Shown here: positions 1 through 15,138 of the stretch, in pieces
Numbering within the stretch: position 1 is the first letter of the stretch
Layout of the letters: each line of letters opens with the position of its first letter
Source of the DNA: a virus
UHGV virus genome: UHGV-0077319
Length of the DNA stretch: 15,138 nt
Strand: one strand, 5' to 3'
The notes under the pieces: generated by a model
Databases searched by the model: none
The model's input: only the letters and a program-made list of their open reading frames with translations
What the model was told of the DNA's origin: nothing
Made by a program: the position numbers and the translations under genes

Positions 1-1100
1 GGCCATGGAACAGGCACACCAACAGGTAATGCAGAGCCTTCTCCCAAACCAAGGTATGCGAGAAGACCAGCTACATCCTTTCCACTCAAATTAGTCAGCG
101 TATTGTCCAGCGGTTGTTTACCTGCCAGCGCATTAAGCATTGTCGTGGCAAAGTTCGGGTCATTCCCCAGCGCCGCAGCCAGTTCGTTCAGTGTATCCAG
201 TGCAGCAGGTGCAGACCCCACCATTGCCGCAATTGCCGATTTCACAAAAGCCGTGGTGGCAATCTGTGTATTGTTAACCGACTGTGCGGCAGTGGGGGCT
301 GTTGGCGTTCCGGTGAGTGCCGGACTTAACAGCGGCGCTTTCAGTGCCAGCGCATTGTTAATGGTGGTACTGAATTTCGGGTCATTATTAATGGCAGCGG
401 CAATTTCTTTCAGCGTATCCAGTGTGGCTGGCGCACCATTAATAAGGGCCATCAGTGCCGCCTGAACAAACGCGGTGGTCGCAATCTGCGTGGTGTTATT
501 CCCCTCCGCTGGCGTTGGCGCTTTGGGTGTTCCGGTCAATGTCGGGCTTTCTTTGGGGGCATACTGTGAATGCGGGTCCGGTGCGGCAAGATGTTTTGCC
601 ATCTTATCATCCACGAACACCTTCAGCTCCAGTACCTTATCATCCACATACTTGCGGGTTGCCAGCACGACGGCAGGGTCGATTTTCAGGGTGATATTGT
701 CCGTGCTGCTGGTAATCAGCACCATGCGCACGGTCTGGGTGCGCCCGCTGCCTTCAGCCAGTTGCGGCTTATAGCTTTCCGGGCAGTTGCCTACGGCAAT
801 CAATGCCCCGGACTCATCAAACAGACCCACTTCACGTATCCACCAACCACCCTCATTTTCAGGGATCACCTGTTCAGCAATAATCTGGCTGCTGTTCTGC
901 GGGTCGATATAGAGCATATTCAGCGCAGCCCGGCGTTTCTCATTTACCAGTGCCGTCTGCTTTGCGTCCGGCGTCGGCAATGCTCCGCCGCCATCGCCCA
1001 CCGCCATATGGGTAATTTTTAGCGGCACACCGAGCGCGGCGGCGCTGGCAAGTTTCGCCGCGCCAATATCCGTCAGCAGGGTATAAAATTTTGTGCTCAT
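1..1100 (-). CDS. H: tail fibre protein gpH, N-terminal part (3' end lies beyond the window start)
   Basis: Minus-strand ATG at 1100 (reverse complement of cat 1098..1100). My hand translation begins MSTKFYTLLTDIGAAKLA and resembles the P2 gpH N-terminus. No minus-strand stop down to position 1. Overlaps the gpI stop by 4 nt. Confidence 0.8.
   Translation of the reverse strand, partial: MSTKFYTLLTDIGAAKLASAAALGVPLKITHMAVGDGGGALPTPDAKQTALVNEKRRAALNMLYIDPQNSSQIIAEQVIPENEGGWWIREVGLFDESGALIAVGNCPESYKPQLAEGSGRTQTVRMVLITSSTDNITLKIDPAVVLATRKYVDDKVLELKVFVDDKMAKHLAAPDPHSQYAPKESPTLTGTPKAPTPAEGNNTTQIATTAFVQAALMALINGAPATLDTLKEIAAAINNDPKFSTTINNALALKAPLLSPALTGTPTAPTAAQSVNNTQIATTAFVKSAIAAMVGSAPAALDTLNELAAALGNDPNFATTMLNALAGKQPLDNTLTNLSGKDVAGLLAYLGLGEGSALPVGVPVPW
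117..495. repeat. two diverged tandem copies (~220 bp period) inside the tail fibre gene
   Basis: The segment starting near 120 (tgccagcgcatt...gtatccagtg...ggcaatctgtgt) recurs near 340 (tgccagcgcatt...gtatccagtg...cgcaatctgcgtggtgtt), with shared anchors visible by eye. The plus-strand shadow ORF 103..465 shows the same internal repetition. Confidence 0.7.
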
Positions 1101-1702
1101 GGATTCACTCTCATTGTGTCAATAACATGGACCGCCCCGCCTTCATGCGCGGTGCCGCCGGAAATAATTGTTTCGTTGATATACGGATAGATCGTGATTT
1201 CTTCGCCAAGATAACTGGCGGCTCCCACCCAATGCGGACCGCTGGTCTGCAGATTGATGGACATGCCGATCATGTGACGGCTACATGGTTTGGCATCGCT
1301 TATCAGTCGCTCAAGTTCCAGATAGGTATCTTCAGTGATGCCCTGGTCCTGCACACCAATGTCCAGACGAAACGTGCCCGGTGTTTCTCCGGTCTGCCAC
1401 CACTCAATAATGCGGATCAGGAAGCCGAACGGCTCCACCACCCGCCGTACGGCACTGGTGGTTCCTTTGTGCTGATGAATATAAAAAGCATCCTTCACTA
1501 CCTGGCGTTTGACGCTTTCTGTCCAGCCCTCGTCCCAGCGATCCACAGAGAACGCCCAGGCGAGATAAGGCAGGAAACTGACCGGACAGGTTGCCGGATT
1601 CCACAAGTCACGCAGTGACACCTGCAGATCAGAAATCCCGCTACAGGTTTGCGCCAGTCGGCGCTCCAGTGGCGTTGAACCCGGTGGCAGCAGACTATTC
1701 AT
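1097..1702 (-). CDS. I: baseplate assembly protein gpI
   Basis: 201 aa ORF. The motif RDLWNPATCPVSFLPYLAWAFSVDRWDEGW matches the conserved P2 gpI core (ELWNPDTCP...LAWAFSVDRWDE). Confidence 0.85.
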   Translation of the reverse strand: MNSLLPPGSTPLERRLAQTCSGISDLQVSLRDLWNPATCPVSFLPYLAWAFSVDRWDEGWTESVKRQVVKDAFYIHQHKGTTSAVRRVVEPFGFLIRIIEWWQTGETPGTFRLDIGVQDQGITEDTYLELERLISDAKPCSRHMIGMSINLQTSGPHWVGAASYLGEEITIYPYINETIISGGTAHEGGAVHVIDTMRVNP

Positions 1703-2603
1703 CCGTTCCCCCGTTGGTCACGCTCCACTGAGTACATGATGCCGCCTGCGTTTTGTTCAGGACCACATCAGCCAGCGGTGAAGCCAGCTCCACACGTTGA
1801 ACACCCTCAACATGCAGCGCGGCAAAAATAGCACTACGGCGAATATCCCGACCGAGCCGCGTCTGACTGGCGATGTACCTCTGCAGGCTGACTTTTGCTG
1901 CTGCCATTACCGGCTCTGCTTCCGGTCCCGGATAAAGAAAAATGGTAGCTTCCACACGGTACGGGATGATTTCTGCGCTGCGAACCGTCAGACGGTCAGC
2001 CACCGGGCGGACGTTCTCACTGTTCAGGGCTTTCTCCACCACATCCAGCAAGTCTTTTTCTGCTGTTCCGTCGCCTTCACGACTCAGGACAGTCAGTACC
2101 ACCTCTGCAGGTGCCGGACTGGTTGCACTGGCATCCGCCACCCGACCGTCGGCGCTTCGGGCATGAAATTCATAAGCTGCAGTTGGTCCCGCAACTGAAA
2201 GCCCTTCAAAGGCTGCAGGCACACGCAGGCGTAACGCTTCATCGCTTTCCATCACAGCTGCAACGGGCGGCACAGCGTCATTATCAGCAGGCGTCACCGT
2301 CAGGCGTTTCACGTTGTAGTTGGCAGCGAGCTGGTCAAGATCGCCGCCCATCGCGTAAGCCACCATCACCGCCTGCGCGGCTTCGTTAATGCGCTGGCGC
2401 AGAAGCAACTCACGGTAAGCATTCTCCTGCAACAATTTGGTGACGGGTTCAGATTCCAGTTCCAGCGTGCGGATCACTGCTTCCTGCTCATCTTTCGGAT
2501 GAAGCGCCACAAATTCTGCCTTGCGTTCGGCAAGCAGCGTCTCAAAGTCCGGCACATCCACAATCTGCGGTGCAGGCAACTGCGAAAGGTCAATCACTGC
2601 CAT
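1695..2603 (-). CDS. J: baseplate assembly protein gpJ
   Basis: The track ORF 1695..2642 starts at an upstream Met. The P2-like N-terminus MAVIDLSQLPAPQIVDVPDFETLLAERKA begins at the ATG at 2603 (cat 2601..2603). The C-terminus ends ...VTNGGTDE like P2 gpJ. Confidence 0.85.
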   Translation of the reverse strand: MAVIDLSQLPAPQIVDVPDFETLLAERKAEFVALHPKDEQEAVIRTLELESEPVTKLLQENAYRELLLRQRINEAAQAVMVAYAMGGDLDQLAANYNVKRLTVTPADNDAVPPVAAVMESDEALRLRVPAAFEGLSVAGPTAAYEFHARSADGRVADASATSPAPAEVVLTVLSREGDGTAEKDLLDVVEKALNSENVRPVADRLTVRSAEIIPYRVEATIFLYPGPEAEPVMAAAKVSLQRYIASQTRLGRDIRRSAIFAALHVEGVQRVELASPLADVVLNKTQAASCTQWSVTNGGTDE

Positions 2604-2949
2604 TCTCTGCTCCTGTTGATACGGAAAGGGACACAGGCACACCGTTATTCCGCCGCCCGGTCAGCTCCACCACCATAGAACCGTCAAAGTTGCTGTTGAT
2701 GGTGATGGAATCCAGCGTCAGCCGTGGCTCCCAGCGACTCAGCGCCACATACACTGCCGACATGACCTGCAGGCGTAATGCCGGATTTTGTGGCTGGTCT
2801 ATCAGTGCCGACAGCAGGGAACCATATTCACGACGGGCAATGCGGCTACCCTGCGGCGTCAGCAAAATGTCCCGCACCGACTGGCGCAGATGGTCAATAT
2901 CAGTAATGGCTTTACCGCTGGTATTGTTCATCCCGATATAAAGCGTCAT
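2590..2949 (-). CDS. W: baseplate wedge protein gpW
   Basis: 119 aa. GMNNTSGKAITDIDHLRQSVRDILLTPQGSRIARREYGSLL is similar to P2 gpW. Overlaps the gpJ start by 14 nt and gpV by 4 nt. Confidence 0.85.
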   Translation of the reverse strand: MTLYIGMNNTSGKAITDIDHLRQSVRDILLTPQGSRIARREYGSLLSALIDQPQNPALRLQVMSAVYVALSRWEPRLTLDSITINSNFDGSMVVELTGRRNNGVPVSLSVSTGAENGSD

Positions 2950-3524
2950 ACCGGGCCTCCGGTGGTGTCGCCGCCTTTCAGGACGCCAGTATGCTGATGC
3001 GCATCAACCACGATCCCGTTAGAACTCATTGCACCGCCGCCCTGGGTAACGCCACCATTGATCACCACCTCACTGTTAATACGCGTGCGGTCAGCCTCCA
3101 GTACAAACTCACTGGTTTTCAGGGTGATATTGTCAGTGGCCTCAATGACCATAGATTTGATGCCCCTGACATACCAGAGCCCGGTGGCGGGTTCGTATTC
3201 AAACCAGCCACCGTCAGGATGTTCTGTCACGCAGGCGTCCGCCGACGTCGACGGTGGAGCGAACTGATTCGAATAGACAGCGGGCAGCGCAAAGGCAGTT
3301 TCCAGATTACCGCCCAGACTCAGCAGCACCACCTGCTCACCTTCCGATGGTCGCCACCATGTCCGGGCATTTCCTGCACGCAGCGTCAGCCAACTGATCC
3401 AGTTAGTTTCAAGCTCGCCCGTTTTCACTCGGCAAAGCCAGTTTTCCCTGTCCACTTCGGTGACTACCCCAGTGCGGATCAGGTTGGTGATAAGGCGCAT
3501 GATTTCGGTAAGTTGTGCGTTCAT
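2946..3524 (-). CDS. V: baseplate spike/assembly protein gpV
   Basis: 192 aa. MNAQLTEIMRLITNLIRTGVVTEVDRENWLCRVKTG...TWWRPSEGEQ is similar to P2 gpV. This is the first gene of the V-W-J-I-H operon. Confidence 0.85.
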   Translation of the reverse strand: MNAQLTEIMRLITNLIRTGVVTEVDRENWLCRVKTGELETNWISWLTLRAGNARTWWRPSEGEQVVLLSLGGNLETAFALPAVYSNQFAPPSTSADACVTEHPDGGWFEYEPATGLWYVRGIKSMVIEATDNITLKTSEFVLEADRTRINSEVVINGGVTQGGGAMSSNGIVVDAHQHTGVLKGGDTTGGPV

Positions 3525-3611
3525 GGGGCTGATTCTTGCATGCTAAAAGAAATAAGATCTCCTGTTCAAAAATGTATGAACTCCTATACAATGTATTTCC
3601 CATGAAAATTT
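3525..3611. promoter_or_regulatory. divergent control region between gpV (minus) and the moron ORF (plus); contains a TGT-N12-ACA dyad
   Basis: TGTatgaactcctatACA at 3573..3590 fits the TGT-N12-ACA Ogr/Delta activator-site consensus of P2 late promoters. A sigma70-like pair TTCAAA (3565..3570) and TACAAT (3587..3592) with 16 nt spacing reads toward the plus strand. Confidence 0.35.
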
Positions 3612-4214
3612 ATGGAATTGCTAAAAGTGAACGAAGATAATCAACCTGAAAAAGAAACCAATATCTTGAATAAATGGTCACCCAGGGACTTACTTAATCC
3701 TTTTACTGAACTCTTTACAATATTCACATCAAAAAATGATAACGAAGTGGAAAACGCAGCTGAAAATTTTCAGATGCGAATTCAAAAACTAATATTCTTC
3801 ACATTAACTTTACTACTTCTTACGAAAGGTTTTTTTGAAATACTACAAACTCTAACTTTTTTAGAACAACCCCTTATTCTTCATTTCCCACTCTTAAATG
3901 AACCTTTAGTGTTTTATAAAGACCATGGCATTGCTGGTAGCCTTTTAAGAATAAAATCACTAGTATTTGTAGCCAATGCATTAGCTCTTTCATGCGGTTT
4001 TCAGCTGGCATACATGCTTGTAACAAAGGGACCAGATGAAGCCGTAGAACCAATTATGTTGGGTATCGCCTCTGCTATTCTTTTAATTCTTTCTGATAGT
4101 TCTCCTGCAGAATGGGGGCTGGAGAAATCCTTAGCTATATTCTTTTTAATAATAAGCATCCCAATTTTATATTGGTCATCAAGAAAAATGAAAAAAGATA
4201 AAGATAACGAATGA
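3612..4214 (+). CDS. hypothetical polytopic membrane protein (AT-rich moron at the S/V junction)
   Basis: 200 aa ORF on the strand opposite to the late genes, in markedly AT-rich DNA with AT-rich codon usage. At least four hydrophobic helices (LIFFTLTLLLLTKGFF, ALSCGFQLAYMLV, IMLGIASAILLILS, LAIFFLIISIPILYW). No clear SD; the true start could be a downstream Met (for example MRIQKL). Confidence 0.55.
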   Translation: MELLKVNEDNQPEKETNILNKWSPRDLLNPFTELFTIFTSKNDNEVENAAENFQMRIQKLIFFTLTLLLLTKGFFEILQTLTFLEQPLILHFPLLNEPLVFYKDHGIAGSLLRIKSLVFVANALALSCGFQLAYMLVTKGPDEAVEPIMLGIASAILLILSDSSPAEWGLEKSLAIFFLIISIPILYWSSRKMKKDKDNE

Positions 4215-4240
4215 CACATTATTTTTCTTTATAGGTATAT

Positions 4241-4687
4241 TTATCTAAATAGCCAGCACAGAATAGCGTCACGGGTAACTATTTCCACTTCATCACTAAC
4301 GCCTAGTAGTCTACGCTCTGCATAGCGGACCTCCGGTCCTCTTCGACTGACGCGATCACGCAGGCCGTAATGGTGAACACGGGCAATGCGCTGTACCTTG
4401 CCTTCAAACTGCACGCTGGCAGAGTCGGCGCTGGCGGCAGTTTTCAGGTATTTTGTGGTGCGCAGCTTTGTAAACATCTGACGTTTGATGCGCCCCTTTT
4501 TGCTGCGTGCTGTTACCCGTCGCGGCTCATAACTGCTGCCATCTGGATTGCGCTGCATCCTGATGTTCTGCTGCTGTGTCCGGCGCAGTTCCTGCGCCAG
4601 CTGGCGCATCATGCGGCTTCTGGTGGCTGGCTCCAGATTCGCCAGCAAGGCACTCAGCCAGTCGTCCACTTTCTGCAGTTCAGCCAC
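4241..4687 (-). CDS. S: tail completion / virion morphogenesis protein gpS
   Basis: 148 aa ORF in the S position, last gene of the O-to-S operon. Size and position match P2 gpS (about 150 aa). Confidence 0.75.
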   Translation of the reverse strand: MAELQKVDDWLSALLANLEPATRSRMMRQLAQELRRTQQQNIRMQRNPDGSSYEPRRVTARSKKGRIKRQMFTKLRTTKYLKTAASADSASVQFEGKVQRIARVHHYGLRDRVSRRGPEVRYAERRLLGVSDEVEIVTRDAILCWLFR

Positions 4688-5132
4688 GTTTCACCGTCCA
4701 CATTTCTTCAGGTTCATCAGGTTCCGCTATAGCTTCAACGCTCGACACACTGCCGTCAGTGCTGACCAGCACACGCTCCGTCAGTTGCAGGTTCAGGCTG
4801 ATATCACAGACATCGTTGCGCAGAATATCCACCTCAAAGGTGAATAGCTTTTCCCGTAACGCCGGGTTATTGATGGCATCGGGCTGGTTATCACGCAGCC
4901 ACAGCAAAACCGGGGCCATCAACAGATTCTGGTCACCACTGAAATCCTCTATCACCACGTTCAGGGTGTAGCGGTACTCCCATGACATGGAGCTGGCCCC
5001 CGTGGCAACCAGCGAACCGTTATCCACAAACAGATGCAGTTTGTCCGGGTTATTACGGACATAAGGCACTGCTTTATTAATGGCGTGGCGCAGGGATTGT
5101 GGTTTGTTCACTATTTCGCTCCTGACACGCAA
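4680..5132 (-). CDS. R: tail completion protein gpR
   Basis: 150 aa. NPDKLHLFVDNGSL...RYTLNVVIEDFSGDQNLLMAPVLLWLRDNQPD parallels P2 gpR (NPDMLRIFVDNGSI...RYTLNVIVTDFTGD...VPVLAWLRENQPD). Confidence 0.8.
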   Translation of the reverse strand: MRVRSEIVNKPQSLRHAINKAVPYVRNNPDKLHLFVDNGSLVATGASSMSWEYRYTLNVVIEDFSGDQNLLMAPVLLWLRDNQPDAINNPALREKLFTFEVDILRNDVCDISLNLQLTERVLVSTDGSVSSVEAIAEPDEPEEMWTVKRG

Positions 5133-6010: not shown

Positions 6011-6523
6011 TCAGTTTGCTCCCTGTAAACACCAGGCCATCTCCCGCGCACGGCGGTTATCCAGCCCCTGATTAAACACACCTTTTACATAAACCCAGCG
6101 CGGCAACTGTCGGCACGCATCCGCCCAGCGCCGCTGATTGAGCAATTTCACCAGCGTGGAACTACAGGCATTGCCCGTCCCCACGTTGAAGGCAAACGAC
6201 ACCGTAGCGTCATACACCTTCTGTGGTGGCTGTTGCTTCACACACCTTTCCAGTGCCCGCTCCACACGCAGCACGTTGGAGATCAGCCCTTCTGCTGCCT
6301 GTCGTTCCGTGATTGTTTTGCCGGGAATGACGCCCGATGTATTACCAATGCCGTCGGTCCAGACACCCGCGCTGCACTGATACGGCTGCAGACGACAGCC
6401 TTCGTAATCGGCAATCAGTTTCAGCCCCTCCACGGAGGTGTGAAGCTGCTGAAAACCCGGCAGCGTGGCAGCAATAGCCAGCACGACCCCGACAAGGCAG
6501 CGTTTAACGATTGATGGATTCAT
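6011..6523 (-). CDS. phage lysozyme (T4/P21-type, GH24-like) with a probable N-terminal SAR signal-anchor-release domain
   Basis: 170 aa. Weakly hydrophobic Gly/Ala-rich N-terminus (VKRCLVGVVLAIAATLPG), then a lysozyme core (EGLKLIADYEGCRLQPYQCSAGVWTDGIGNT; FNVGTGNACSSTLVKLLN) resembling the P21 R21 SAR endolysin. Confidence 0.85.
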   Translation of the reverse strand: MNPSIVKRCLVGVVLAIAATLPGFQQLHTSVEGLKLIADYEGCRLQPYQCSAGVWTDGIGNTSGVIPGKTITERQAAEGLISNVLRVERALERCVKQQPPQKVYDATVSFAFNVGTGNACSSTLVKLLNQRRWADACRQLPRWVYVKGVFNQGLDNRRAREMAWCLQGAN

Positions 6524-10187: not shown

Positions 10188-11954
10188 ATGAACACCACAC
10201 TGACACCCGCAGATCTCGATCCCCGTCGGCAGGCCATGCTGCTGTACTTTCAGGGATACCGCGTAGCCCGCATTGCTGAAATGCTGGGCGAGAAAGTTGC
10301 AACCGTTCACAGCTGGAAAAAACGCGACAAGTGGGGTGACTATGGGCCGCTGGATCAGATGCAGCTCACCACCGCCGCACGCTACTGCCAGCTCATTATG
10401 AAGGAGCACAAAGAAGGGAAAGATTTCAAAGAGATTGACCTGCTGGCGCGCCAGTCGGAGCGCCATGCGCGGATCGGCAAGTTTAACAATGGCGGCAACG
10501 AAGCCGACTTAAACCCTAACGTCGCCAACCGCAACAAAGGCCCGCGCCGTCAGCCGGAAAAGAACGTTTTCACCGATGAACAGATTGAGAAGCTGGAAGA
10601 AATCTTCCATTCCTCCATGTTCAACTACCAGCGCCACTGGTGGGAAGCCGGAAAAACCAACCGCATCCGCAACCTGCTGAAGTCACGCCAGATCGGCGCG
10701 ACCTTCTATTTTGCCCGTGAAGCCCTGATTGACGCCCTGCTAACCGGGCGTAACCAGATTTTCCTTTCCGCCAGCAAGGCACAGGCCCACGTCTTTAAGC
10801 AGTACATCATCGACTTCGCCAAAGAAGTGGAGGTGGAGCTGAAAGGCGATCCGATAGTGCTTCCTAACGGGGCCACGCTGTACTTCCTCGGCACCAATGC
10901 CCGCACGGCCCAGAGTTACCACGGCAACCTGTATCTGGATGAATATTTCTGGATACCGAAATTCCAGGAGCTGCGCAAAGTGGCTTCCGGTATGGCTATT
11001 CACAAAAAATGGCGACAAACCTATTTTTCCACGCCATCCAGCCTGACACACAGTGCTTATCCGTTCTGGTCCGGTGCGCTGTTCAACCGTGGGCGCAACA
11101 AAGCCGACAAGGTGGACATCGACCTGTCCCACAGCAATCTGGCCCCCGGCCTGCTGTGCGCAGACGGGCAATACCGCCAGATAGTCACCGTGGAAGATGC
11201 GGTGCGCGGCGGCTGTAACCTGTTCGACCTCGACCAGCTACGCATGGAGTACAGCCCGGACGAATACCAGAACCTGCTGATGTGCGAGTTCGTGGACGAT
11301 CTCGCGTCCGTGTTCCCGCTTAGCGAACTGCAGACGTGCATGGTGGACAGTTGGGAAGTCTGGACCGACTTTCATGCACTGGCCCTGCGCCCGTTTGGCT
11401 GGCGCGAGGTGTGGATCGGTTATGACCCGGCAAAAGGTACGCAGAACGGCGACAGTGCCGGATGCGTGGTGGTGGCTCCGCCAGCCGTGCCGGGCGGTAA
11501 GTTCCGTATTCTTGAGCGTCACCAGTGGCGCGGGATGGACTTCCGCGCCCAGGCTGATGCAATCAAAAAACTGACCGAGCAGTACAACGTGACCTATATC
11601 GGCATTGACTCGACAGGCGTCGGTCACGGGGTTTATGAGAACGTGAAAGCGTTCTTTCCTGCCGTCCGGGAGTTTGTCTACAACCCCAACGTTAAAAACG
11701 CTCTGGTACTCAAGGCCTACGACATTATCAGTCACCGTCGTCTGGAGTTTGACGCCGGACACACCGACATTGCGCAGTCATTCATGGCAATCCGTCGCGC
11801 AACCACCGCCAGCGGCAACCGCCCGACCTATGAAGCCAGCCGCAGCGAAGAAGCCAGCCACGCCGATCTGGCCTGGGCAACAATGCACGCACTGTTTAAC
11901 GAACCGCTGCAGGGCGAATCCGCCAATACCAGCAATATTGTGGAGATTTTTTGA
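10188..11954 (+). CDS. P: terminase large (ATPase) subunit gpP
   Basis: 588 aa. N-terminus PRRQAMLLYFQGYRVARIAEMLGEKVATVHSWKKRD is similar to P2 gpP. Stop overlaps the Q start (ATGA). Confidence 0.9.
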   Translation: MNTTLTPADLDPRRQAMLLYFQGYRVARIAEMLGEKVATVHSWKKRDKWGDYGPLDQMQLTTAARYCQLIMKEHKEGKDFKEIDLLARQSERHARIGKFNNGGNEADLNPNVANRNKGPRRQPEKNVFTDEQIEKLEEIFHSSMFNYQRHWWEAGKTNRIRNLLKSRQIGATFYFAREALIDALLTGRNQIFLSASKAQAHVFKQYIIDFAKEVEVELKGDPIVLPNGATLYFLGTNARTAQSYHGNLYLDEYFWIPKFQELRKVASGMAIHKKWRQTYFSTPSSLTHSAYPFWSGALFNRGRNKADKVDIDLSHSNLAPGLLCADGQYRQIVTVEDAVRGGCNLFDLDQLRMEYSPDEYQNLLMCEFVDDLASVFPLSELQTCMVDSWEVWTDFHALALRPFGWREVWIGYDPAKGTQNGDSAGCVVVAPPAVPGGKFRILERHQWRGMDFRAQADAIKKLTEQYNVTYIGIDSTGVGHGVYENVKAFFPAVREFVYNPNVKNALVLKAYDIISHRRLEFDAGHTDIAQSFMAIRRATTASGNRPTYEASRSEEASHADLAWATMHALFNEPLQGESANTSNIVEIF

Positions 11955-12979
11955 TGGGAAAGAGTAAGAAGAACCGCGCTGCGGCGACGAAACAGCTCCA
12001 GCTTAAAAACCAGACTACAGCCGAAGCATTCAGCTTCGGCGATCCCGTTCCTGTTCTGGACCGCCGAGAACTGCTGGACTATGTGGAATGCGTACAGATG
12101 GACCGTTGGTATGAGCCGCCCGTCAGCTTTGACGGACTGGCGCGCACCTTCCGCGCTGCCGTGCATCACAGTTCCCCGATTGCAGTAAAGTGCAACATTC
12201 TGACCAGTACCTATATCCCTCATCCGCTGCTCAGCCAGCAGGCTTTTTCGCGTTTTGTGCAGGACTATCTGGTATTTGGTAACGCCTACCTGGAGAAACG
12301 CACAAACCGATTCGGTGAAGTTATCGCTCTTGAGCCTGCGCTGGCAAAATACACCCGACGCGGATTAGACCTGGATACCTACTGGTTTGTGCAATACGGT
12401 ATGACAACCCAGCCGTATCAGTTCACGAAAGGCAGCATTTTTCATCTGATGGAACCGGACATCAACCAGGAGATCTACGGCCTGCCCGGCTATCTTTCTG
12501 CCATTCCGTCAGCCCTACTCAACGAGTCCGCCACGCTGTTCCGTCGCAAGTATTACATTAACGGCAGCCATGCGGGCTTTATCATGTACATGACCGATGC
12601 CGCGCAAAACCAGGAGGATGTGAACAACCTCCGCAACGCGATGAAAAGCGCCAAAGGTCCAGGCAACTTCCGCAACCTGTTTATGTACTCGCCTAACGGC
12701 AAAAAGGACGGGCTTCAGATCATCCCATTGTCAGAAGTCGCGGCGAAGGATGAATTTCTTAATATCAAGAACGTGAGTCGGGATGACATGATGGCAGCGC
12801 ACCGCGTGCCGCCTCAGATGATGGGGATTATGCCTAATAATGTTGGGGGGTTTGGGGATGTGGAGAAAGCAAGTAAAGTGTTTGTACGAAACGAACTTAT
12901 ACCATTACAAAAACGCTTAGGAGAGATAAATGAATGGCTTGATAAAAAAATAATAGAATTTGAAATATATTCACTCTGA
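11951..12979 (+). CDS. Q: portal (capsid vertex) protein gpQ
   Basis: 342 aa in the position downstream of and overlapping P, as in the P2 P-Q operon. The last ~30 codons fall in AT-rich sequence, which suggests the island junction lies at the gene's 3' end. Confidence 0.85.
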   Translation: MMGKSKKNRAAATKQLQLKNQTTAEAFSFGDPVPVLDRRELLDYVECVQMDRWYEPPVSFDGLARTFRAAVHHSSPIAVKCNILTSTYIPHPLLSQQAFSRFVQDYLVFGNAYLEKRTNRFGEVIALEPALAKYTRRGLDLDTYWFVQYGMTTQPYQFTKGSIFHLMEPDINQEIYGLPGYLSAIPSALLNESATLFRRKYYINGSHAGFIMYMTDAAQNQEDVNNLRNAMKSAKGPGNFRNLFMYSPNGKKDGLQIIPLSEVAAKDEFLNIKNVSRDDMMAAHRVPPQMMGIMPNNVGGFGDVEKASKVFVRNELIPLQKRLGEINEWLDKKIIEFEIYSL

Positions 12980-13026
12980 TACATTTACATCACTTAATAG
13001 GACATCCATCGCTCAACACATAATAA

Positions 13027-13056
13027 GAAAAAAAACTACGGCACTACCGTGCCGTA
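13027..13056 (-). terminator. rho-independent terminator for the minus-strand cargo operon (possibly weakly bidirectional)
   Basis: Perfect 7 bp stem acggcac (13038..13044) / gtgccgt (13049..13055) with a 4 nt loop. On the minus strand the hairpin is followed by a U8 tract (A-run 13028..13035 on the plus strand). Lies directly after the last cargo gene. Confidence 0.6.
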
Positions 13057-13064
13057 ACAAATTA

Positions 13065-13559
13065 TCACTTTAAGAATTTTTTCTGATAAGACTCATCAAT
13101 TAGAGATTTAATTATTTTCGCCCTTTTTGACACTAATACACTAATTCTTGTCCTTTGACTTTTATCATACTCCTGTGCTTTTTCAATATTAGATGTAGCA
13201 TCTTTGAATAAATCAGCAATCAAAGGTTTATAGTCACCTTCGATATTAATGCGTTGTTTTAGATGATTCAACCACCGCTCGGTCTCCGCAAGAAGTGCTG
13301 TTATCTCATTTTGAAATGACATTGCATCAATTTCTTTTGAATCTCCCGGTATCCAAAACTTTCTTGATGCAGATTCAATTTCCTTTAAATTATCTGAAAC
13401 ATTTTTTACAATTGACCATGTTTCACTCCTCTTTTGCAACGCACGGGAGTTTCTATATACAAAAACCCAACCAATCAAGGCTGTTAGAATTGCAATCACA
13501 CCTGAACTAGCAAGGTATTGTAATAACCGCAGATAAACCGGAAGTTCATCCATGAACAT
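13065..13559 (-). CDS. cargo gene C: single-pass membrane protein with coiled-coil-like soluble domain (hypothetical; candidate effector)
   Basis: AT-rich ORF. Candidate starts are GTG 13562, ATG 13559 (overlapping the gene B stop as TGATG) and ATG 13553 (GGAG 8 nt upstream). N-terminal hydrophobic helix LLQYLASSGVIAILTALIGWVFVY, then a charged helical region. The terminator follows. Confidence 0.6.
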   Translation of the reverse strand: MFMDELPVYLRLLQYLASSGVIAILTALIGWVFVYRNSRALQKRSETWSIVKNVSDNLKEIESASRKFWIPGDSKEIDAMSFQNEITALLAETERWLNHLKQRINIEGDYKPLIADLFKDATSNIEKAQEYDKSQRTRISVLVSKRAKIIKSLIDESYQKKFLK

Positions 13560-13879
13560 CACTCCTTTTTAGCATCAGAAATATATCCCCATATACTATC
13601 CTTGAGGAAATCCAAATCAGTAAATATTTTTAATTTTTTCCTAATTATAGCTTTATCTATATTATTTGTTCTATAAAGTCCACCAAACGCCTCTTCCAAG
13701 AATGAAGAACCATAACCCATAGCACCATCAAGGTACACGTGCACCTCATCATAATCTTGGATGGCTTTCAAAAGATACTTTTCACGGAAACGTTGTCCAT
13801 TATCAGGACCATCCTCATCATAGCGGCCATAGGGAACATCTGAAAAATCTTCAGCAACATGTATCTCTTTGATTTTCAT
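13559..13879 (-). CDS. cargo gene B: small acidic protein, STAS-like (anti-sigma-antagonist-like) by motif; hypothetical
   Basis: 106 aa. ATG at 13879 overlaps the gene A stop (ATGA). VHVYLDGAMGYGSSFLEEAFGGL resembles the strand-Ser-helix core of STAS/SpoIIAA-like domains. The assignment is from motif memory only. Confidence 0.55.
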   Translation of the reverse strand: MKIKEIHVAEDFSDVPYGRYDEDGPDNGQRFREKYLLKAIQDYDEVHVYLDGAMGYGSSFLEEAFGGLYRTNNIDKAIIRKKLKIFTDLDFLKDSIWGYISDAKKE

Positions 13880-14943
13880 TCAGCACCTCTCAAACTTACA
13901 TTCCATTGAATAAGGGTTCCACCTATGGAGTATGGCAGATCAAATTTATCTTCAACATTATTTTCAGCATCATAAGAATATCGTCCCATTCCACTAAAAA
14001 TATGTAACTGCCCCTCAGGGTTATCTACAACATACCTTTTCATATCAGGTAATCCTTTACCATGCTTCTGACTATTCATTCTTGTCTCACCATACTGTAC
14101 AGCCGCGAATATTTTATCAGAATCCGTCTTAGGATTAAATATCTGAGCGATAAATGTGAAAAAGTCTTTTTTAACCAATGTAACTGGGATACCTTCTCCC
14201 ATATCATACACCATCAAAAATAGTTGTTCTTCGACTTTGTGTGCCAATATCCACCATCTTTTACCAATGTCCTCAATAAATTCAGAGAACTGTTCTTCAT
14301 TTGAATACGCATGTAGACCAACATTGCTAATAGATTCAGTTAATGCTGCATATAATTTCACACCATCCGAAGCGGAAATCTTACCTTCATAAATGGTATC
14401 TTTTATATAACGTAGAATATTTTTAATTTTTTGTCTTGCTTCGGCACTTTCATGATCATCTCTAGTTTTGCCTGCAACAGCGGAAACAATTTCCATTGAA
14501 TTAAGCTTATCTGCAGCTATACGCTGAAACCCTGTAATCCCCCAAATACCACATATTTTAAACCAGTTATTTGCCCTGGGTGAACCGCACGTAGTAATAG
14601 AAATTATATTTTTATCTTTTGTTTGCCTTTGTAAAAAGTCAATATGTGCATACAATACGATTACTGCACATGCTTTCAGAGATTTTGTATTTCTGAAATC
14701 TATTAAAATTTTCTCACCATCATTGATGTAATCTCTGATTAAAGTGATAAACTCTATAAATAGTTTGTAATTTTTAGTATTAAATAAGTCCAATGACGCA
14801 GGCGCGGGTATTCTCACACGAGAGAATACCCGCATGGGCTGTAGCATCCGTCTTCCACCAGAAAGCTTTCTTGACTCCCGCTTCGCAATCTTCCTTGCTC
14901 TGATCAAAGAATGTTCAATTTGTTCTTCAGTTAGCCGCTTCAT
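13876..14943 (-). CDS. cargo gene A: protein with an N-terminal domain of unknown function and a C-terminal GHKL (histidine-kinase-like) ATPase domain
   Basis: The track ORF starts at 14988, but the ATG at 14943 (MKRLTEEQ) has GAGG 7 nt upstream. Bergerat-fold motifs appear in the canonical order: N-box ESISNVGLHA, G1 box YDMGEGIP (DxGxG), G2 box HGKGLPD (GxGL). The N-terminal ~200 residues are unrecognised. Confidence 0.65.
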   Translation of the reverse strand: MKRLTEEQIEHSLIRARKIAKRESRKLSGGRRMLQPMRVFSRVRIPAPASLDLFNTKNYKLFIEFITLIRDYINDGEKILIDFRNTKSLKACAVIVLYAHIDFLQRQTKDKNIISITTCGSPRANNWFKICGIWGITGFQRIAADKLNSMEIVSAVAGKTRDDHESAEARQKIKNILRYIKDTIYEGKISASDGVKLYAALTESISNVGLHAYSNEEQFSEFIEDIGKRWWILAHKVEEQLFLMVYDMGEGIPVTLVKKDFFTFIAQIFNPKTDSDKIFAAVQYGETRMNSQKHGKGLPDMKRYVVDNPEGQLHIFSGMGRYSYDAENNVEDKFDLPYSIGGTLIQWNVSLRGAE

Positions 14944-15138
14944 ATCCTTTCCTCGATAGTTGTTGAAGCTTATCAGTTCACGCAACAACTACAAACATCT
15001 ACCTGCTATCTTAAAGCAACAATTTGAAAGAACATTGAAAATCATAGTATCTGTTTGTAAACAAACGACTGTTTCTATACCTTGCGCGCGCTCGTATCCC
15101 CGCCACGCCTGCCCGCTTTATGTAGTGGTTTTCATGCA

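What the first reader, a model, noticed from the sequence alone, without database searches (positions are those of the whole stretch)
3612..4214. AT-rich membrane-protein moron at the S/V late-operon boundary
A 200 aa polytopic membrane protein is encoded on the opposite strand to all flanking late genes, exactly between the end of the O-to-S operon and the start of the V operon, where P2 has orf30. The sharp compositional contrast with the backbone indicates horizontal acquisition. Membrane-protein morons at such positions are candidates for superinfection exclusion or other lysogenic-conversion functions.
Basis: partly seen in the sequence, partly recalled or inferred. Interest (0 to 1): 0.55.

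Follow-up and report, generated by a model that had tools for sequence, protein, structure and literature searches.

The report
Unannotated membrane-protein cargo in P2-like prophage
A P2-like prophage carries, in a slot already known to collect foreign genes, a conserved gene for a four-helix inner-membrane protein from a widespread family that no database names; it is a reasonable but untested candidate for protecting the host against other phages.

Summary
Window 3612-4214 (+) is a 200-aa ORF (33% GC, GC3 25%) between P2-type genes V (2946-3524, -) and S (4241-4687, -), which are about 56% GC. This is where P2 has orf30, but the two proteins are not homologous.

The gene is real:
- dN/dS is 0.11-0.16.
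- 56 homologue clusters occur in Enterobacterales.
- About 490 remote representatives occur across several phyla.

It encodes four predicted transmembrane helices. A near-invariant turn, T-x-G-P-D-E-A-x-E-P, joins helices 2 and 3.

Pfam, PHROGs, NCBIfam, PADLOC, PDB sequences and three fold searches found no informative match.

It is mobile cargo:
- Phages with 95% identical backbones have an empty 68-77 nt S-V gap.
- Relatives sit in the S-V gap of Citrobacter, Klebsiella and Pantoea prophages.
- They also sit in the Z/fun slot of other P2-like phages and in an AT-rich chromosomal patch in Cronobacter.
- Remote relatives lie beside or fused to putAbiC, OLD-like and other defence-type genes.

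Function is inferred, not shown. I put an anti-phage role at the membrane at roughly 0.5: 0.3 for blocking DNA entry and 0.22 for abortive infection. The slot is known and the family is new, so interest is moderate.

The parts
3612..4214 (+). Cargo CDS, 200 aa including the stop codon. An alternative GTG start at 3627 would give 195 aa. Encodes a predicted 4-TM inner-membrane protein of an unannotated family.
3780..3848 (+). TM1 (aa 57-79). It is preceded by the conserved juxtamembrane helix AAxxFQxRxQKxIF (aa 49-62) and contains K72, G73 and E76, which are invariant in close homologues.
3960..4094 (+). Most conserved core (aa 117-161): TM2, an acidic turn and TM3, with consensus ALAxSCGxQLAYMLxTxGPDEAxxPxMLGxASxILLxLS.
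4023..4052 (+). Signature turn T138-K-G-P-D-E-A-V-E-P147. T138, D142, E143 and P147 are invariant across the 92-sequence superfamily alignment. The positive-inside rule places the turn on the cytoplasmic side.
3525..3611 (.). 87-nt AT-rich divergent control region between the V start and the cargo start. It carries the V-operon late promoter and must also hold any promoter for the cargo.
3573..3590 (.). TGT-N12-ACA dyad (TGTATGAACTCCTATACA), 49 nt from the V start codon. This is the expected Ogr-type activator site of the late promoter PV.
   Evidence: one such dyad lies 47-49 nt from the V start in all 16 loci examined. P2 annotates its activator site at the same relative position.
3565..3592 (+). 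Sigma-70-like hexamers TTCAAA-16-TACAAT, 20 nt upstream of ATG 3612, overlapping the dyad. Candidate cargo promoter only.
   Evidence: 9/12 match, but the region yields 3 such sites against 2.5 expected from shuffles; hexamers conserved in close relatives.
4215..4240 (.). 26-nt spacer (19% GC) between the convergent stop codons of the cargo and S. No intrinsic terminator detected.
2946..3524 (-). gpV baseplate spike gene. It forms the left boundary of the cargo cassette. Identity to empty-site phages runs up to its start codon.
4241..4687 (-). gpS tail-completion gene, the last gene of the O-to-S operon. It forms the right boundary of the cargo cassette.

Best explanation
What is shown:
- 3612-4214 is a functional, horizontally mobile accessory gene in the orf30 slot of a P2-like prophage.
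- It encodes a roughly 200-aa protein with four predicted transmembrane helices.
- It belongs to a large family that no database annotates.

What is predicted from the positive-inside rule: the N-terminus, the invariant TxGPDEAxEP turn and the K/R-rich tail face the cytoplasm, and a variable loop (aa 81-112) faces the periplasm.

What is inferred: the gene is transcribed divergently from the V late promoter, independently of the late operons, and so is made in the lysogen. It then sits in the inner membrane as a stand-alone protein that excludes superinfecting phages.

For this short, partner-less P2-borne form I favour a SieA/Imm/gp15-type block of genome transfer across the inner membrane. 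The variable periplasmic loop would give specificity and the conserved cytoplasmic face would provide the common mechanism.

An anti-phage role of either type I put at about 0.5. This specific entry-block mechanism I put at 0.3.
For: - Real, selected gene: dN/dS 0.11-0.16; 56 homologue clusters; about 492 remote representatives.
- Cargo status: empty S-V gap in 95%-identical backbones, in 77 of 80 closest IMG/VR contigs and in E. coli. GC is 33% against 56%.
- Same slot and orientation in Citrobacter, Klebsiella and Pantoea prophages, down to 40-45% identity.
- Same family in the second P2 cargo slot (G-FI, the Z/fun slot) in L048-L050.
- No conserved partner gene in any context.
- Four or five TM helices across the family, some members with an added N-terminal TM.
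- The periplasmic loop is variable while the predicted cytoplasmic motifs are invariant.
- These features parallel P22 SieA: 162 aa, 3 TM, variants with an extra N-terminal TM, and its best-conserved motif on the cytoplasmic side (PMC10883804).
- The three classical P2 variable regions are the TO region, the Z region and orf30 (PMC3091744). The first two hold the P2 exclusion genes old/tin and Z/fun (iLund4u preprint).
Against: - No expression or phenotype data.
- The promoter match is not better than chance and there is no terminator.
- The superfamily spans Proteobacteria, Bacteroidota, Chloroflexi, Actinomycetota and a Heliomicrobium MAG, often outside recognisable prophages. That breadth is unusual for receptor- or phage-specific entry blockers and fits a generic membrane effector better.
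- The putAbiC fusion and adjacency point towards abortive infection rather than entry block.
- No homologue exists in 50,697 deposited phage genomes, so no characterised phage carries it.
Confidence: 0.3

Rival explanations
1. Abortive-infection membrane effector. The conserved 4-TM module oligomerises and permeabilises or depolarises the inner membrane when infection perturbs it. The infected cell dies or arrests before the phage matures. In longer relatives, N-terminal extensions or fused or adjacent proteins such as putAbiC would act as sensors.
For: - The module is fused to putAbiC (PF16872) in a 533-aa Saccharicrinis protein (P0195 = L038 6657-8258).
- In Ancylomarina a putAbiC protein (L028 322-1296) overlaps the start of the family member.
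- The conserved module is C-terminal, with variable N-terminal regions.
- TM1 carries charged or polar residues K72 and E76, and the acidic turn is invariant.
- Neighbours include an OLD/GajA/AriA-like ATPase-TOPRIM protein, PDDEXK_4, HsdM_N, BrnT, and hits to the PADLOC candidate models PDC-S15, PDC-S26 and PDC-S42.
- The phylum-spanning distribution in low-GC islets fits a generic effector.
Against: - The window protein has only about 57 cytoplasmic residues before TM1, the first 13-21 modelled at pLDDT below 50, so it has no obvious sensor.
- It has no partner gene.
- The putAbiC link is seen in only 2 of 26 genome loci, both Bacteroidota.
- putAbiC is itself only a putative annotation.
- There are no PADLOC hits to the family itself.
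Confidence: 0.22
2. Lysogenic-conversion or host-fitness membrane protein unrelated to phage defence, for example envelope-stress tolerance, ion or small-molecule handling, or immunity to a membrane-acting toxin or bacteriocin.
For: - In Cronobacter sakazakii the homologue sits at a fixed chromosomal position (453 contigs), beside a DUF7079 gene and a 4HBT_2 thioesterase gene, next to a region that varies between strains.
- Most neighbours of remote homologues are ordinary metabolic or unknown genes, with no recurring partner.
- P2-like cargo slots also carry non-defence cargo, such as an O-antigen acyltransferase-type gene in L007, and toxins and partition systems (PMC9122126).
Against: - No transporter, enzyme or immunity-protein signature at sequence or fold level.
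- The repeated association with phage cargo slots and AT-rich mobile patches favours a conflict-related role.
Confidence: 0.2
3. Accessory function in the phage's own lytic cycle, such as modulating lysis timing or membrane events. Alternatively, the convergent, terminator-less arrangement may act mainly to damp read-through between the O-to-S operon and the V operon.
For: - The gene lies near the lysis cassette.
- Only 26 nt separate it from the convergent S stop, with no terminator.
- Its upstream region overlaps the PV activator site, so its expression is probably coupled inversely to late transcription.
Against: - Most closely related phages lack any gene here and keep a 68-77 nt gap, so it is dispensable for the phage cycle.
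- The same family occurs in the Z/fun slot and in non-phage chromosomal sites.
- No match to any holin or antiholin family at E<=0.01 in Pfam or PHROGs.
- Purifying selection acts on the protein, not just the DNA.
Confidence: 0.08
4. Non-functional ORF or decaying remnant.
For: Some database homologues are N-terminally shorter (126-135 aa: P0053, P0054, P0056). These could be truncated copies.
Against: - 200 open codons in 33% GC DNA.
- dN/dS 0.11-0.16.
- Residues invariant across phyla.
Confidence: 0.02

Closest known systems
Bacteriophage P2 orf30 (NP_046770) and the orf30 variable locus of P2-like phages
   Same: - Same position, between the S stop and the V late promoter.
- Opposite strand to S and V.
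- Similarly low GC (0.34).
- Non-essential cargo.
- Also has TM-like segments.
- The locus is recognised in the literature as one of three horizontally acquired regions of P2-like phages (PMC3091744).
   Different: - No sequence similarity (BLASTP E=1.4).
- 261 aa with 3 TM-like segments, against 200 aa with 4.
- Orf30's own function is listed as unknown (PMC3091744 Table 4).
P22 SieA (inner-membrane superinfection-exclusion protein)
   Same: - Small (162 aa), stand-alone, prophage-encoded polytopic inner-membrane protein.
- Sequence types differ by an extra N-terminal TM.
- The best-conserved motif is predicted to be cytoplasmic (PMC10883804).
- The present family shows all three traits.
   Different: - No detectable homology: no Pfam or PHROG hit.
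- Different motif: TxGPDEAxEP against FxRYPxEAxxFNK.
- 4 TM against 3 TM.
- SieA is carried by P22 and its relatives (PMC10883804), whereas this family spans several phyla.
- Exclusion activity is untested here.
AbiC-like proteins (Pfam putAbiC, PF16872)
   Same: Remote relatives of the TM module are fused to a putAbiC protein (Saccharicrinis, 533 aa) or immediately follow one (Ancylomarina). This suggests a shared pathway.
   Different: - The window protein has no putAbiC domain.
- The link is limited to two Bacteroidota loci.
- The Pfam family is itself annotated only as 'putative'.
Lambda RexB, T4 Imm and HK97 gp15 (membrane components of phage exclusion)
   Same: Small inner-membrane proteins made by a resident or infecting phage that act against other phages at the membrane. 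This rests on established knowledge and was not tested here.
   Different: - No match to any Pfam or PHROG family. I did not check which exclusion-protein models those libraries hold.
- No RexA-like partner is present.
- The TM number and motifs differ.
Other cargo of the P2 S-V slot (FRG-domain protein, DUF2971 protein, other hypothetical membrane proteins)
   Same: Same slot, same orientation, similarly AT-rich. An FRG protein also sits directly downstream of a remote family member in viral contig L061.
   Different: These are unrelated protein families, and several are soluble.

Membership tests
P2 orf30-locus cargo (horizontally acquired gene between S and V) | Lies between the stop of S and the late promoter of V, on the opposite strand | tested here: met
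P2 orf30-locus cargo (horizontally acquired gene between S and V) | Present or absent among otherwise closely related phages, and compositionally foreign | tested here: met
   Empty gap in 95%-identical backbones and in 77 of 80 closest contigs. GC is 0.33 against 0.56.
P2 Orf30 protein family | Sequence homology to NP_046770 | tested here: not met
   BLASTP best E=1.4
Moron in the strict sense (independent transcription unit) | Own promoter upstream | tested here: inconclusive
   TTCAAA-16-TACAAT at 3565-3592, but the scan finds 3 sites against 2.5 expected by chance. The hexamers are conserved in close relatives. There are no transcript data.
Moron in the strict sense (independent transcription unit) | Own terminator downstream | tested here: not met
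   No terminator-like site. The 26-nt spacer and its surroundings fold no better than shuffles (z = -0.5 and 0.0).
Known superinfection-exclusion protein families (SieA, SieB, Imm, gp15, Cor, Ltp and others) | Profile-level sequence membership | tested here: not met
   No Pfam or PHROG family at E<=0.01. No viral fold match at E<=0.001. I did not check which exclusion-protein models these libraries hold.
Known superinfection-exclusion protein families (SieA, SieB, Imm, gp15, Cor, Ltp and others) | Expressed from the prophage and blocks phage DNA entry | not testable with these tools
   Needs lysogen RNA-seq or 5'-RACE, and plating, K+-efflux and DNA-entry assays.
AbiC-like (Pfam putAbiC PF16872) | Contains the putAbiC domain | tested here: not met
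   No hit in the window protein. The domain is found only in one fused remote relative (P0195) and one adjacent protein (L028).
Catalogued anti-phage defence systems (PADLOC-DB 2.0) | Match to any defence-protein model | tested here: not met
   0 families for the window protein at E<=0.1. Among 92 family members, only a spurious Cas4a hit at E=0.008.
RexAB-type exclusion | RexB-like membrane protein together with a RexA-like partner gene | tested here: not met
   The window cassette holds only this gene. No Pfam hit.
Holins and antiholins | Membership of a holin family, or location in the lysis cassette on the late strand | tested here: not met
   No holin family in Pfam or PHROGs for this ORF at E<=0.01. 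It lies on the opposite strand, outside the lysis genes.
New 'TxGPDEAxEP' 4-TM family (defined here) | Juxtamembrane helix plus four TM helices, with invariant Q58, T138, D142, E143 and P147 | tested here: met

The most novel reading that the evidence does not exclude
The ORF is a founding member of an unrecognised, phylum-spanning family of stand-alone membrane anti-phage proteins. The family is defined by a 4-TM module with an invariant cytoplasmic TxGPDEAxEP turn. P2-like phages shuttle it between at least two cargo slots (S-V and Z/fun). The same module serves as the membrane effector of AbiC-like systems in Bacteroidota.
Probability: 0.4. Interest if true: 0.6.

Novelty: new member of a known kind. 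Interest (0 to 1): 0.38.

Why it matters
P2-like prophages are recognised carriers of anti-phage genes. Recent surveys have centred on the old/tin and Z/fun hotspots. The orf30 slot has been known as a variable region for many years, and P2 Orf30 is listed with unknown function (PMC3091744).

This gene gives that slot a tractable candidate:
- It is a single small gene.
- It is under clear purifying selection.
- It recurs in two P2 hotspots.
- It belongs to a family of several hundred 50%-identity clusters with no name in Pfam, PHROGs, NCBIfam or PADLOC.

If it protects against phages, it would add a one-gene membrane defence family and give a function to a widespread unannotated domain. If it does not, it is still a clean example of cassette exchange that carries its own copy of a late promoter.

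Tried and rejected
1. Homology to P2 Orf30 and to the 254-aa E. coli S-V cargo: none.
2. Pfam, PHROGs, PADLOC and NCBIfam on the ORF: no hits.
3. PDB sequence profile search with the family alignment at E<=10: nothing.
4. Fold searches:
   - Foldseek against BFVD and against PDB gave no match at E<=0.001.
   - The afdb50 library was unavailable.
5. tblastn against 50,697 deposited phage genomes: no match. Against plasmids: one partial Pantoea megaplasmid hit.
6. Search for a conserved partner gene among 96 neighbours of remote homologues: none recurs more than twice.
7. Intrinsic terminator or structured RNA around the ORF: none. The folds are no better than shuffles and there is no Rfam match.
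8. tRNA at the Cronobacter locus, as a possible att marker: none.
9. Literature: no paper in the library mentions putAbiC. The hotspot papers do not treat the S-V slot or this family. Christie and Calendar's P2 review is not held.
10. The idea that the ORF is a chance frame or pseudogene: rejected on dN/dS and conservation.

Full report
**1. What is in the window**

The window is the late-gene region of a P2-like (Peduoviridae-type) prophage. On the - strand lie:
- I (1097-1702), J (1695-2642), W (2590-2949) and V (2946-3524);
- S (4241-4687), R (4680-5132) and a lysozyme (6011-6523);
- further head-gene-sized ORFs upstream.

The terminase large subunit gene P (10188-11954) and the portal gene Q (11951-12979) are on the + strand, assigned from their match to the P-Q layout of related loci.

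P2 itself has the non-essential orf30 (261 aa) in this position and orientation. Orf30 is flanked by the O-operon terminator and the V-promoter activator site.

**2. Composition and coding status**

GC falls to 0.30-0.37 across 3450-4350, against 0.50-0.63 on either side. The ORF has GC 0.333 and GC3 0.254. V, S and R have GC3 of 0.59-0.62.

Several lines show it is a real gene:
- A 200-codon open frame in DNA this AT-rich is very unlikely by chance.
- dN/dS against homologues with unsaturated dS is 0.11-0.16.
- A word-indexed search found 56 homologue clusters, all 'hypothetical'. Those that carry an organism name are Enterobacterales: Citrobacter, Klebsiella, Cronobacter, Serratia, Pantoea, Hafnia and Scandinavium.

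The start codon is ambiguous. Relatives such as L042, which has a strong AGGGGGAA Shine-Dalgarno, and the annotated Citrobacter protein use the codon equivalent to GTG 3627.

**3. The protein**

Hydropathy gives four TM-like segments at aa 57-79, 107-138, 142-166 and 168-192. The N-terminal 56 residues are acidic and hydrophilic, and the C-tail is rich in K and R. The positive-inside rule therefore predicts that both termini are cytoplasmic. This topology is inferred, not measured.

Many relatives add a fifth, N-terminal TM helix.

AlphaFold2 gives an all-helical model:
- with 36 homologues, pLDDT 74.5 and pTM 0.61;
- with 48 homologues, pLDDT 78.7 and pTM 0.68.

The model has a long helix from 43 to 82, formed by a juxtamembrane helix running into TM1. 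A poorly modelled loop with a small hairpin follows. TM2 and TM3 form a tight hairpin, followed by TM4.

Conservation is concentrated in two places:
- the juxtamembrane helix, AAxxFQxRxQKxIF;
- above all, ALAxSCGxQLAYMLxTxGPDEAxxPxMLGxASxILLxLS, which spans TM2, a turn and TM3.

**4. A large, unnamed family**

An exhaustive profile search of 1.84 billion representatives found 492 proteins at E<=1e-3 and 264 at E<=1e-10. For the distant hits, the match is mostly to the last 90-150 residues.

Across 92 diverse members, Q58, L132, L136, T138, D142, E143 and P147 are invariant. The consensus is ELAYMLFTPGPDEAxEP.

Nothing identifies the family:
- No Pfam, PHROG, NCBIfam or PADLOC model matches the window protein, and no Pfam or PADLOC model covers the shared domain.
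- No PDB sequence matches.
- Foldseek against viral and PDB structures returns nothing significant.

Genome hits cover several lineages:
- Alpha-, Beta- and Gammaproteobacteria;
- Bacteroidota;
- Chloroflexi;
- Actinomycetota;
- Desulfobulbus;
- a Heliomicrobium MAG.

The matching segment is often much lower in GC than the surrounding contig, for example 0.38 against 0.67 in Nitrospirillum.

**5. It is mobile cargo in a known slot**

- Window 1-3524 is 95% identical to Escherichia phage 500465-1 and Klebsiella phage KP12. In both, the S-V interval is empty.
- In an E. coli empty site the V-S gap is 68 nt. Identity to the window runs exactly up to the V start codon and resumes at the S stop.
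- Of the 80 IMG/VR contigs with the closest S proteins, 77 have an empty gap of about 77 nt. Three carry other cargo of 304 or 429 aa. None carries this family.
- None of the 878 E. coli genomes that match the flanks has this insert.

Elsewhere the slot holds other genes:
- P2 Orf30;
- an FRG-domain protein;
- a 254-aa protein;
- 233-aa and 278-aa proteins;
- this family together with a DUF2971 protein.

Several of these are also predicted membrane proteins.

The literature already lists orf30, the Z region and the TO region as the three places where P2-like phages acquire foreign genes (PMC3091744). Recent hotspot surveys concentrate on old/tin and Z/fun.

**6. Where the family travels**

- Relatives at 40-89% identity sit in the same slot and orientation in Citrobacter, Klebsiella and Pantoea prophages and in at least 14 IMG/VR P2-like contigs.
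- In L048-L050 a 46%-identical, 244-aa member sits instead between G and FI, which is the Z/fun slot. There it is co-directional with the late genes, and the S-V slot of the same phages holds unrelated AT-rich genes.
- A remote member follows S in a distant, 61% GC P2-like contig.
- In Cronobacter sakazakii a 50%-identical member (453 contigs) sits at a fixed chromosomal position in an AT-rich patch. It usually follows a DUF7079 gene. It borders a segment that differs between strains and holds integrases and a P4-like primase/AlpA module.

No partner gene is conserved across these contexts.

**7. Hints to function**

Among 26 genome or viral loci with remote members:
- One protein is a fusion, with putAbiC at residues 261-346 and this module at 435-531. 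It is the 533-aa Saccharicrinis protein, which sits next to an HsdM fragment.
- One locus, in Ancylomarina, has a putAbiC protein whose end overlaps the member's start.
- Other immediate neighbours include an OLD/GajA/AriA-like ATPase-TOPRIM protein, a PDDEXK_4 nuclease, BrnT toxins and an FRG protein.
- Some neighbours hit the PADLOC candidate models PDC-S15, PDC-S26 and PDC-S42.

By my count, roughly 4-5 of the 26 loci have a defence-type gene within two genes. That is suggestive, but it has no matched control. Most neighbours are unrelated housekeeping or unknown genes.

**8. Regulation (inferred)**

Each of the 16 S-V regions examined, empty or filled, keeps one TGT-N12-ACA dyad 47-49 nt from the V start codon. 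This matches the position of P2's annotated activator site, which lies about 55 nt from a transcription start annotated at the first base of V. That the dyad is the Ogr recognition element rests on my knowledge of P2 late promoters.

In the window the dyad is at 3573-3590. The sequence between the dyad and V differs from that in empty-site phages, so the cassette brings its own copy of PV.

The cargo start is only 21 nt beyond the dyad. The best sigma-70-like hexamers, TTCAAA-16-TACAAT at 3565-3592, overlap it. I infer back-to-back promoters, in which Ogr binding could switch the cargo off as late genes switch on. The hexamer match is no better than chance, so this is a hypothesis.

No terminator separates the convergent cargo and S genes, and there is no Rfam hit.

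**9. Most likely mechanism**

The shown facts support this much: a selected, mobile, stand-alone inner-membrane protein carried in phage cargo slots.

From the company it keeps, and from the known roles of P2's other cargo genes (old, tin and Z/fun, all phage-exclusion genes), I judge an anti-phage role at the membrane to be about 0.5 likely.

For this short, partner-less form I slightly prefer a SieA/Imm/gp15-like block of genome entry (0.3). The parallels to P22 SieA are its size, its stand-alone nature, variants with an extra N-terminal TM, and a conserved cytoplasmic motif (PMC10883804).

An abortive-infection membrane effector is nearly as likely (0.22). It is better supported by the putAbiC link and by the phylum-wide spread.

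The remaining options are a non-defence host-fitness role (0.2), a role in the phage's own cycle (0.08), and something not considered here. A junk ORF is excluded.

**10. Novelty and verdict**

The kind of feature, an AT-rich cargo gene in the P2 orf30 slot, is already known. The gene family is not catalogued anywhere I could search and has a striking invariant motif.

I file it as a new member of a known kind, of moderate interest (0.38). It is a good, cheap candidate for a plaque-assay screen, but not a surprise to a P2 or phage-defence specialist.

Noticed in passing
window 12980-15138: A second AT-rich block (GC 0.30-0.39) lies just beyond portal gene Q, in the classical P2 old/tin (TO) hotspot. 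It has three co-directional - strand ORFs:
- 13876-14988: 370 aa, weak HATPase_c (E=2e-3), phrog_3364.
- 13559-13879: 106 aa, DUF4325 STAS-like (E=3.5e-12).
- 13065-13562: 165 aa, no Pfam hit.

None has a PADLOC hit. They could form a three-gene defence cassette.
   Followed up: partly
window 3573-3590; also L007, L010, L015, L016, L042-L047, L051-L053, L056, L059, L064: One TGT-N12-ACA dyad sits 47-49 nt from the V start codon in every S-V region examined, whether the slot is empty or filled. The rest of the V upstream region differs between cassettes, so each cargo cassette carries its own copy of the V late promoter.
   Followed up: yes
L048 and L050 7827-8561 (also L049): A 244-aa member of the same family (46% identity, GC 0.35) sits in the other P2 cargo slot, between tail-fibre assembly gene G and sheath gene FI (the Z/fun slot). 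Here it is co-directional with the late genes. The S-V slot of these phages holds unrelated AT-rich genes of 233 or 278 aa.
   Followed up: partly
L038 6657-8258 (Saccharicrinis aurantiacus); L028 322-1296 and 1269-1850 (Ancylomarina longa): The conserved TM module is fused to a putAbiC (PF16872) protein in one Bacteroidota genome. In another, the end of a putAbiC gene overlaps the start of the family member. This is a gene-fusion link between the two.
   Followed up: partly
L001-L006 5324-6636 (Cronobacter sakazakii): A 211-aa homologue (453 contigs) lies at a fixed chromosomal site in an AT-rich patch. It usually sits 290 nt downstream of a DUF7079 gene. It borders a segment that differs between strains and holds integrases, a P4-like primase/AlpA module, Mrr_cat and transposase genes. 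No tRNA is nearby.
   Followed up: partly
L053 and L054 8001-9389: In these P2-like contigs the S-V slot holds two co-directional cargo genes: a family member, then a 286-aa DUF2971 protein (E=1e-5).
   Followed up: no
L061 7995-9498 (IMG/VR contig): A remote family member (174 aa) lies directly upstream of an FRG-domain protein (298 aa) in an AT-rich cluster, after a DUF1367 gene. FRG-domain proteins are also cargo of the E. coli P2 S-V slot, as in L015.
   Followed up: no
L007 590-1516: The Citrobacter P2-like prophage that carries the 88%-identical homologue also has an Acyl_transf_3 gene between the tail-fibre assembly and sheath genes, on the opposite strand to them. This could be an O-antigen-modifying lysogenic-conversion cargo in the Z/fun slot.
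   Followed up: no
L055 2429-4093: A rearranged P2-like contig in which Q follows S has a 554-aa AT-rich KAP-family P-loop NTPase next to Q.
   Followed up: no
L014 1809 (phage P2 record NC_001895, position 10308): The P2 record annotates the V-operon transcription start at the first base of the V coding sequence. This implies a leaderless V mRNA. The window's V gene likewise has no obvious Shine-Dalgarno upstream.
   Followed up: no
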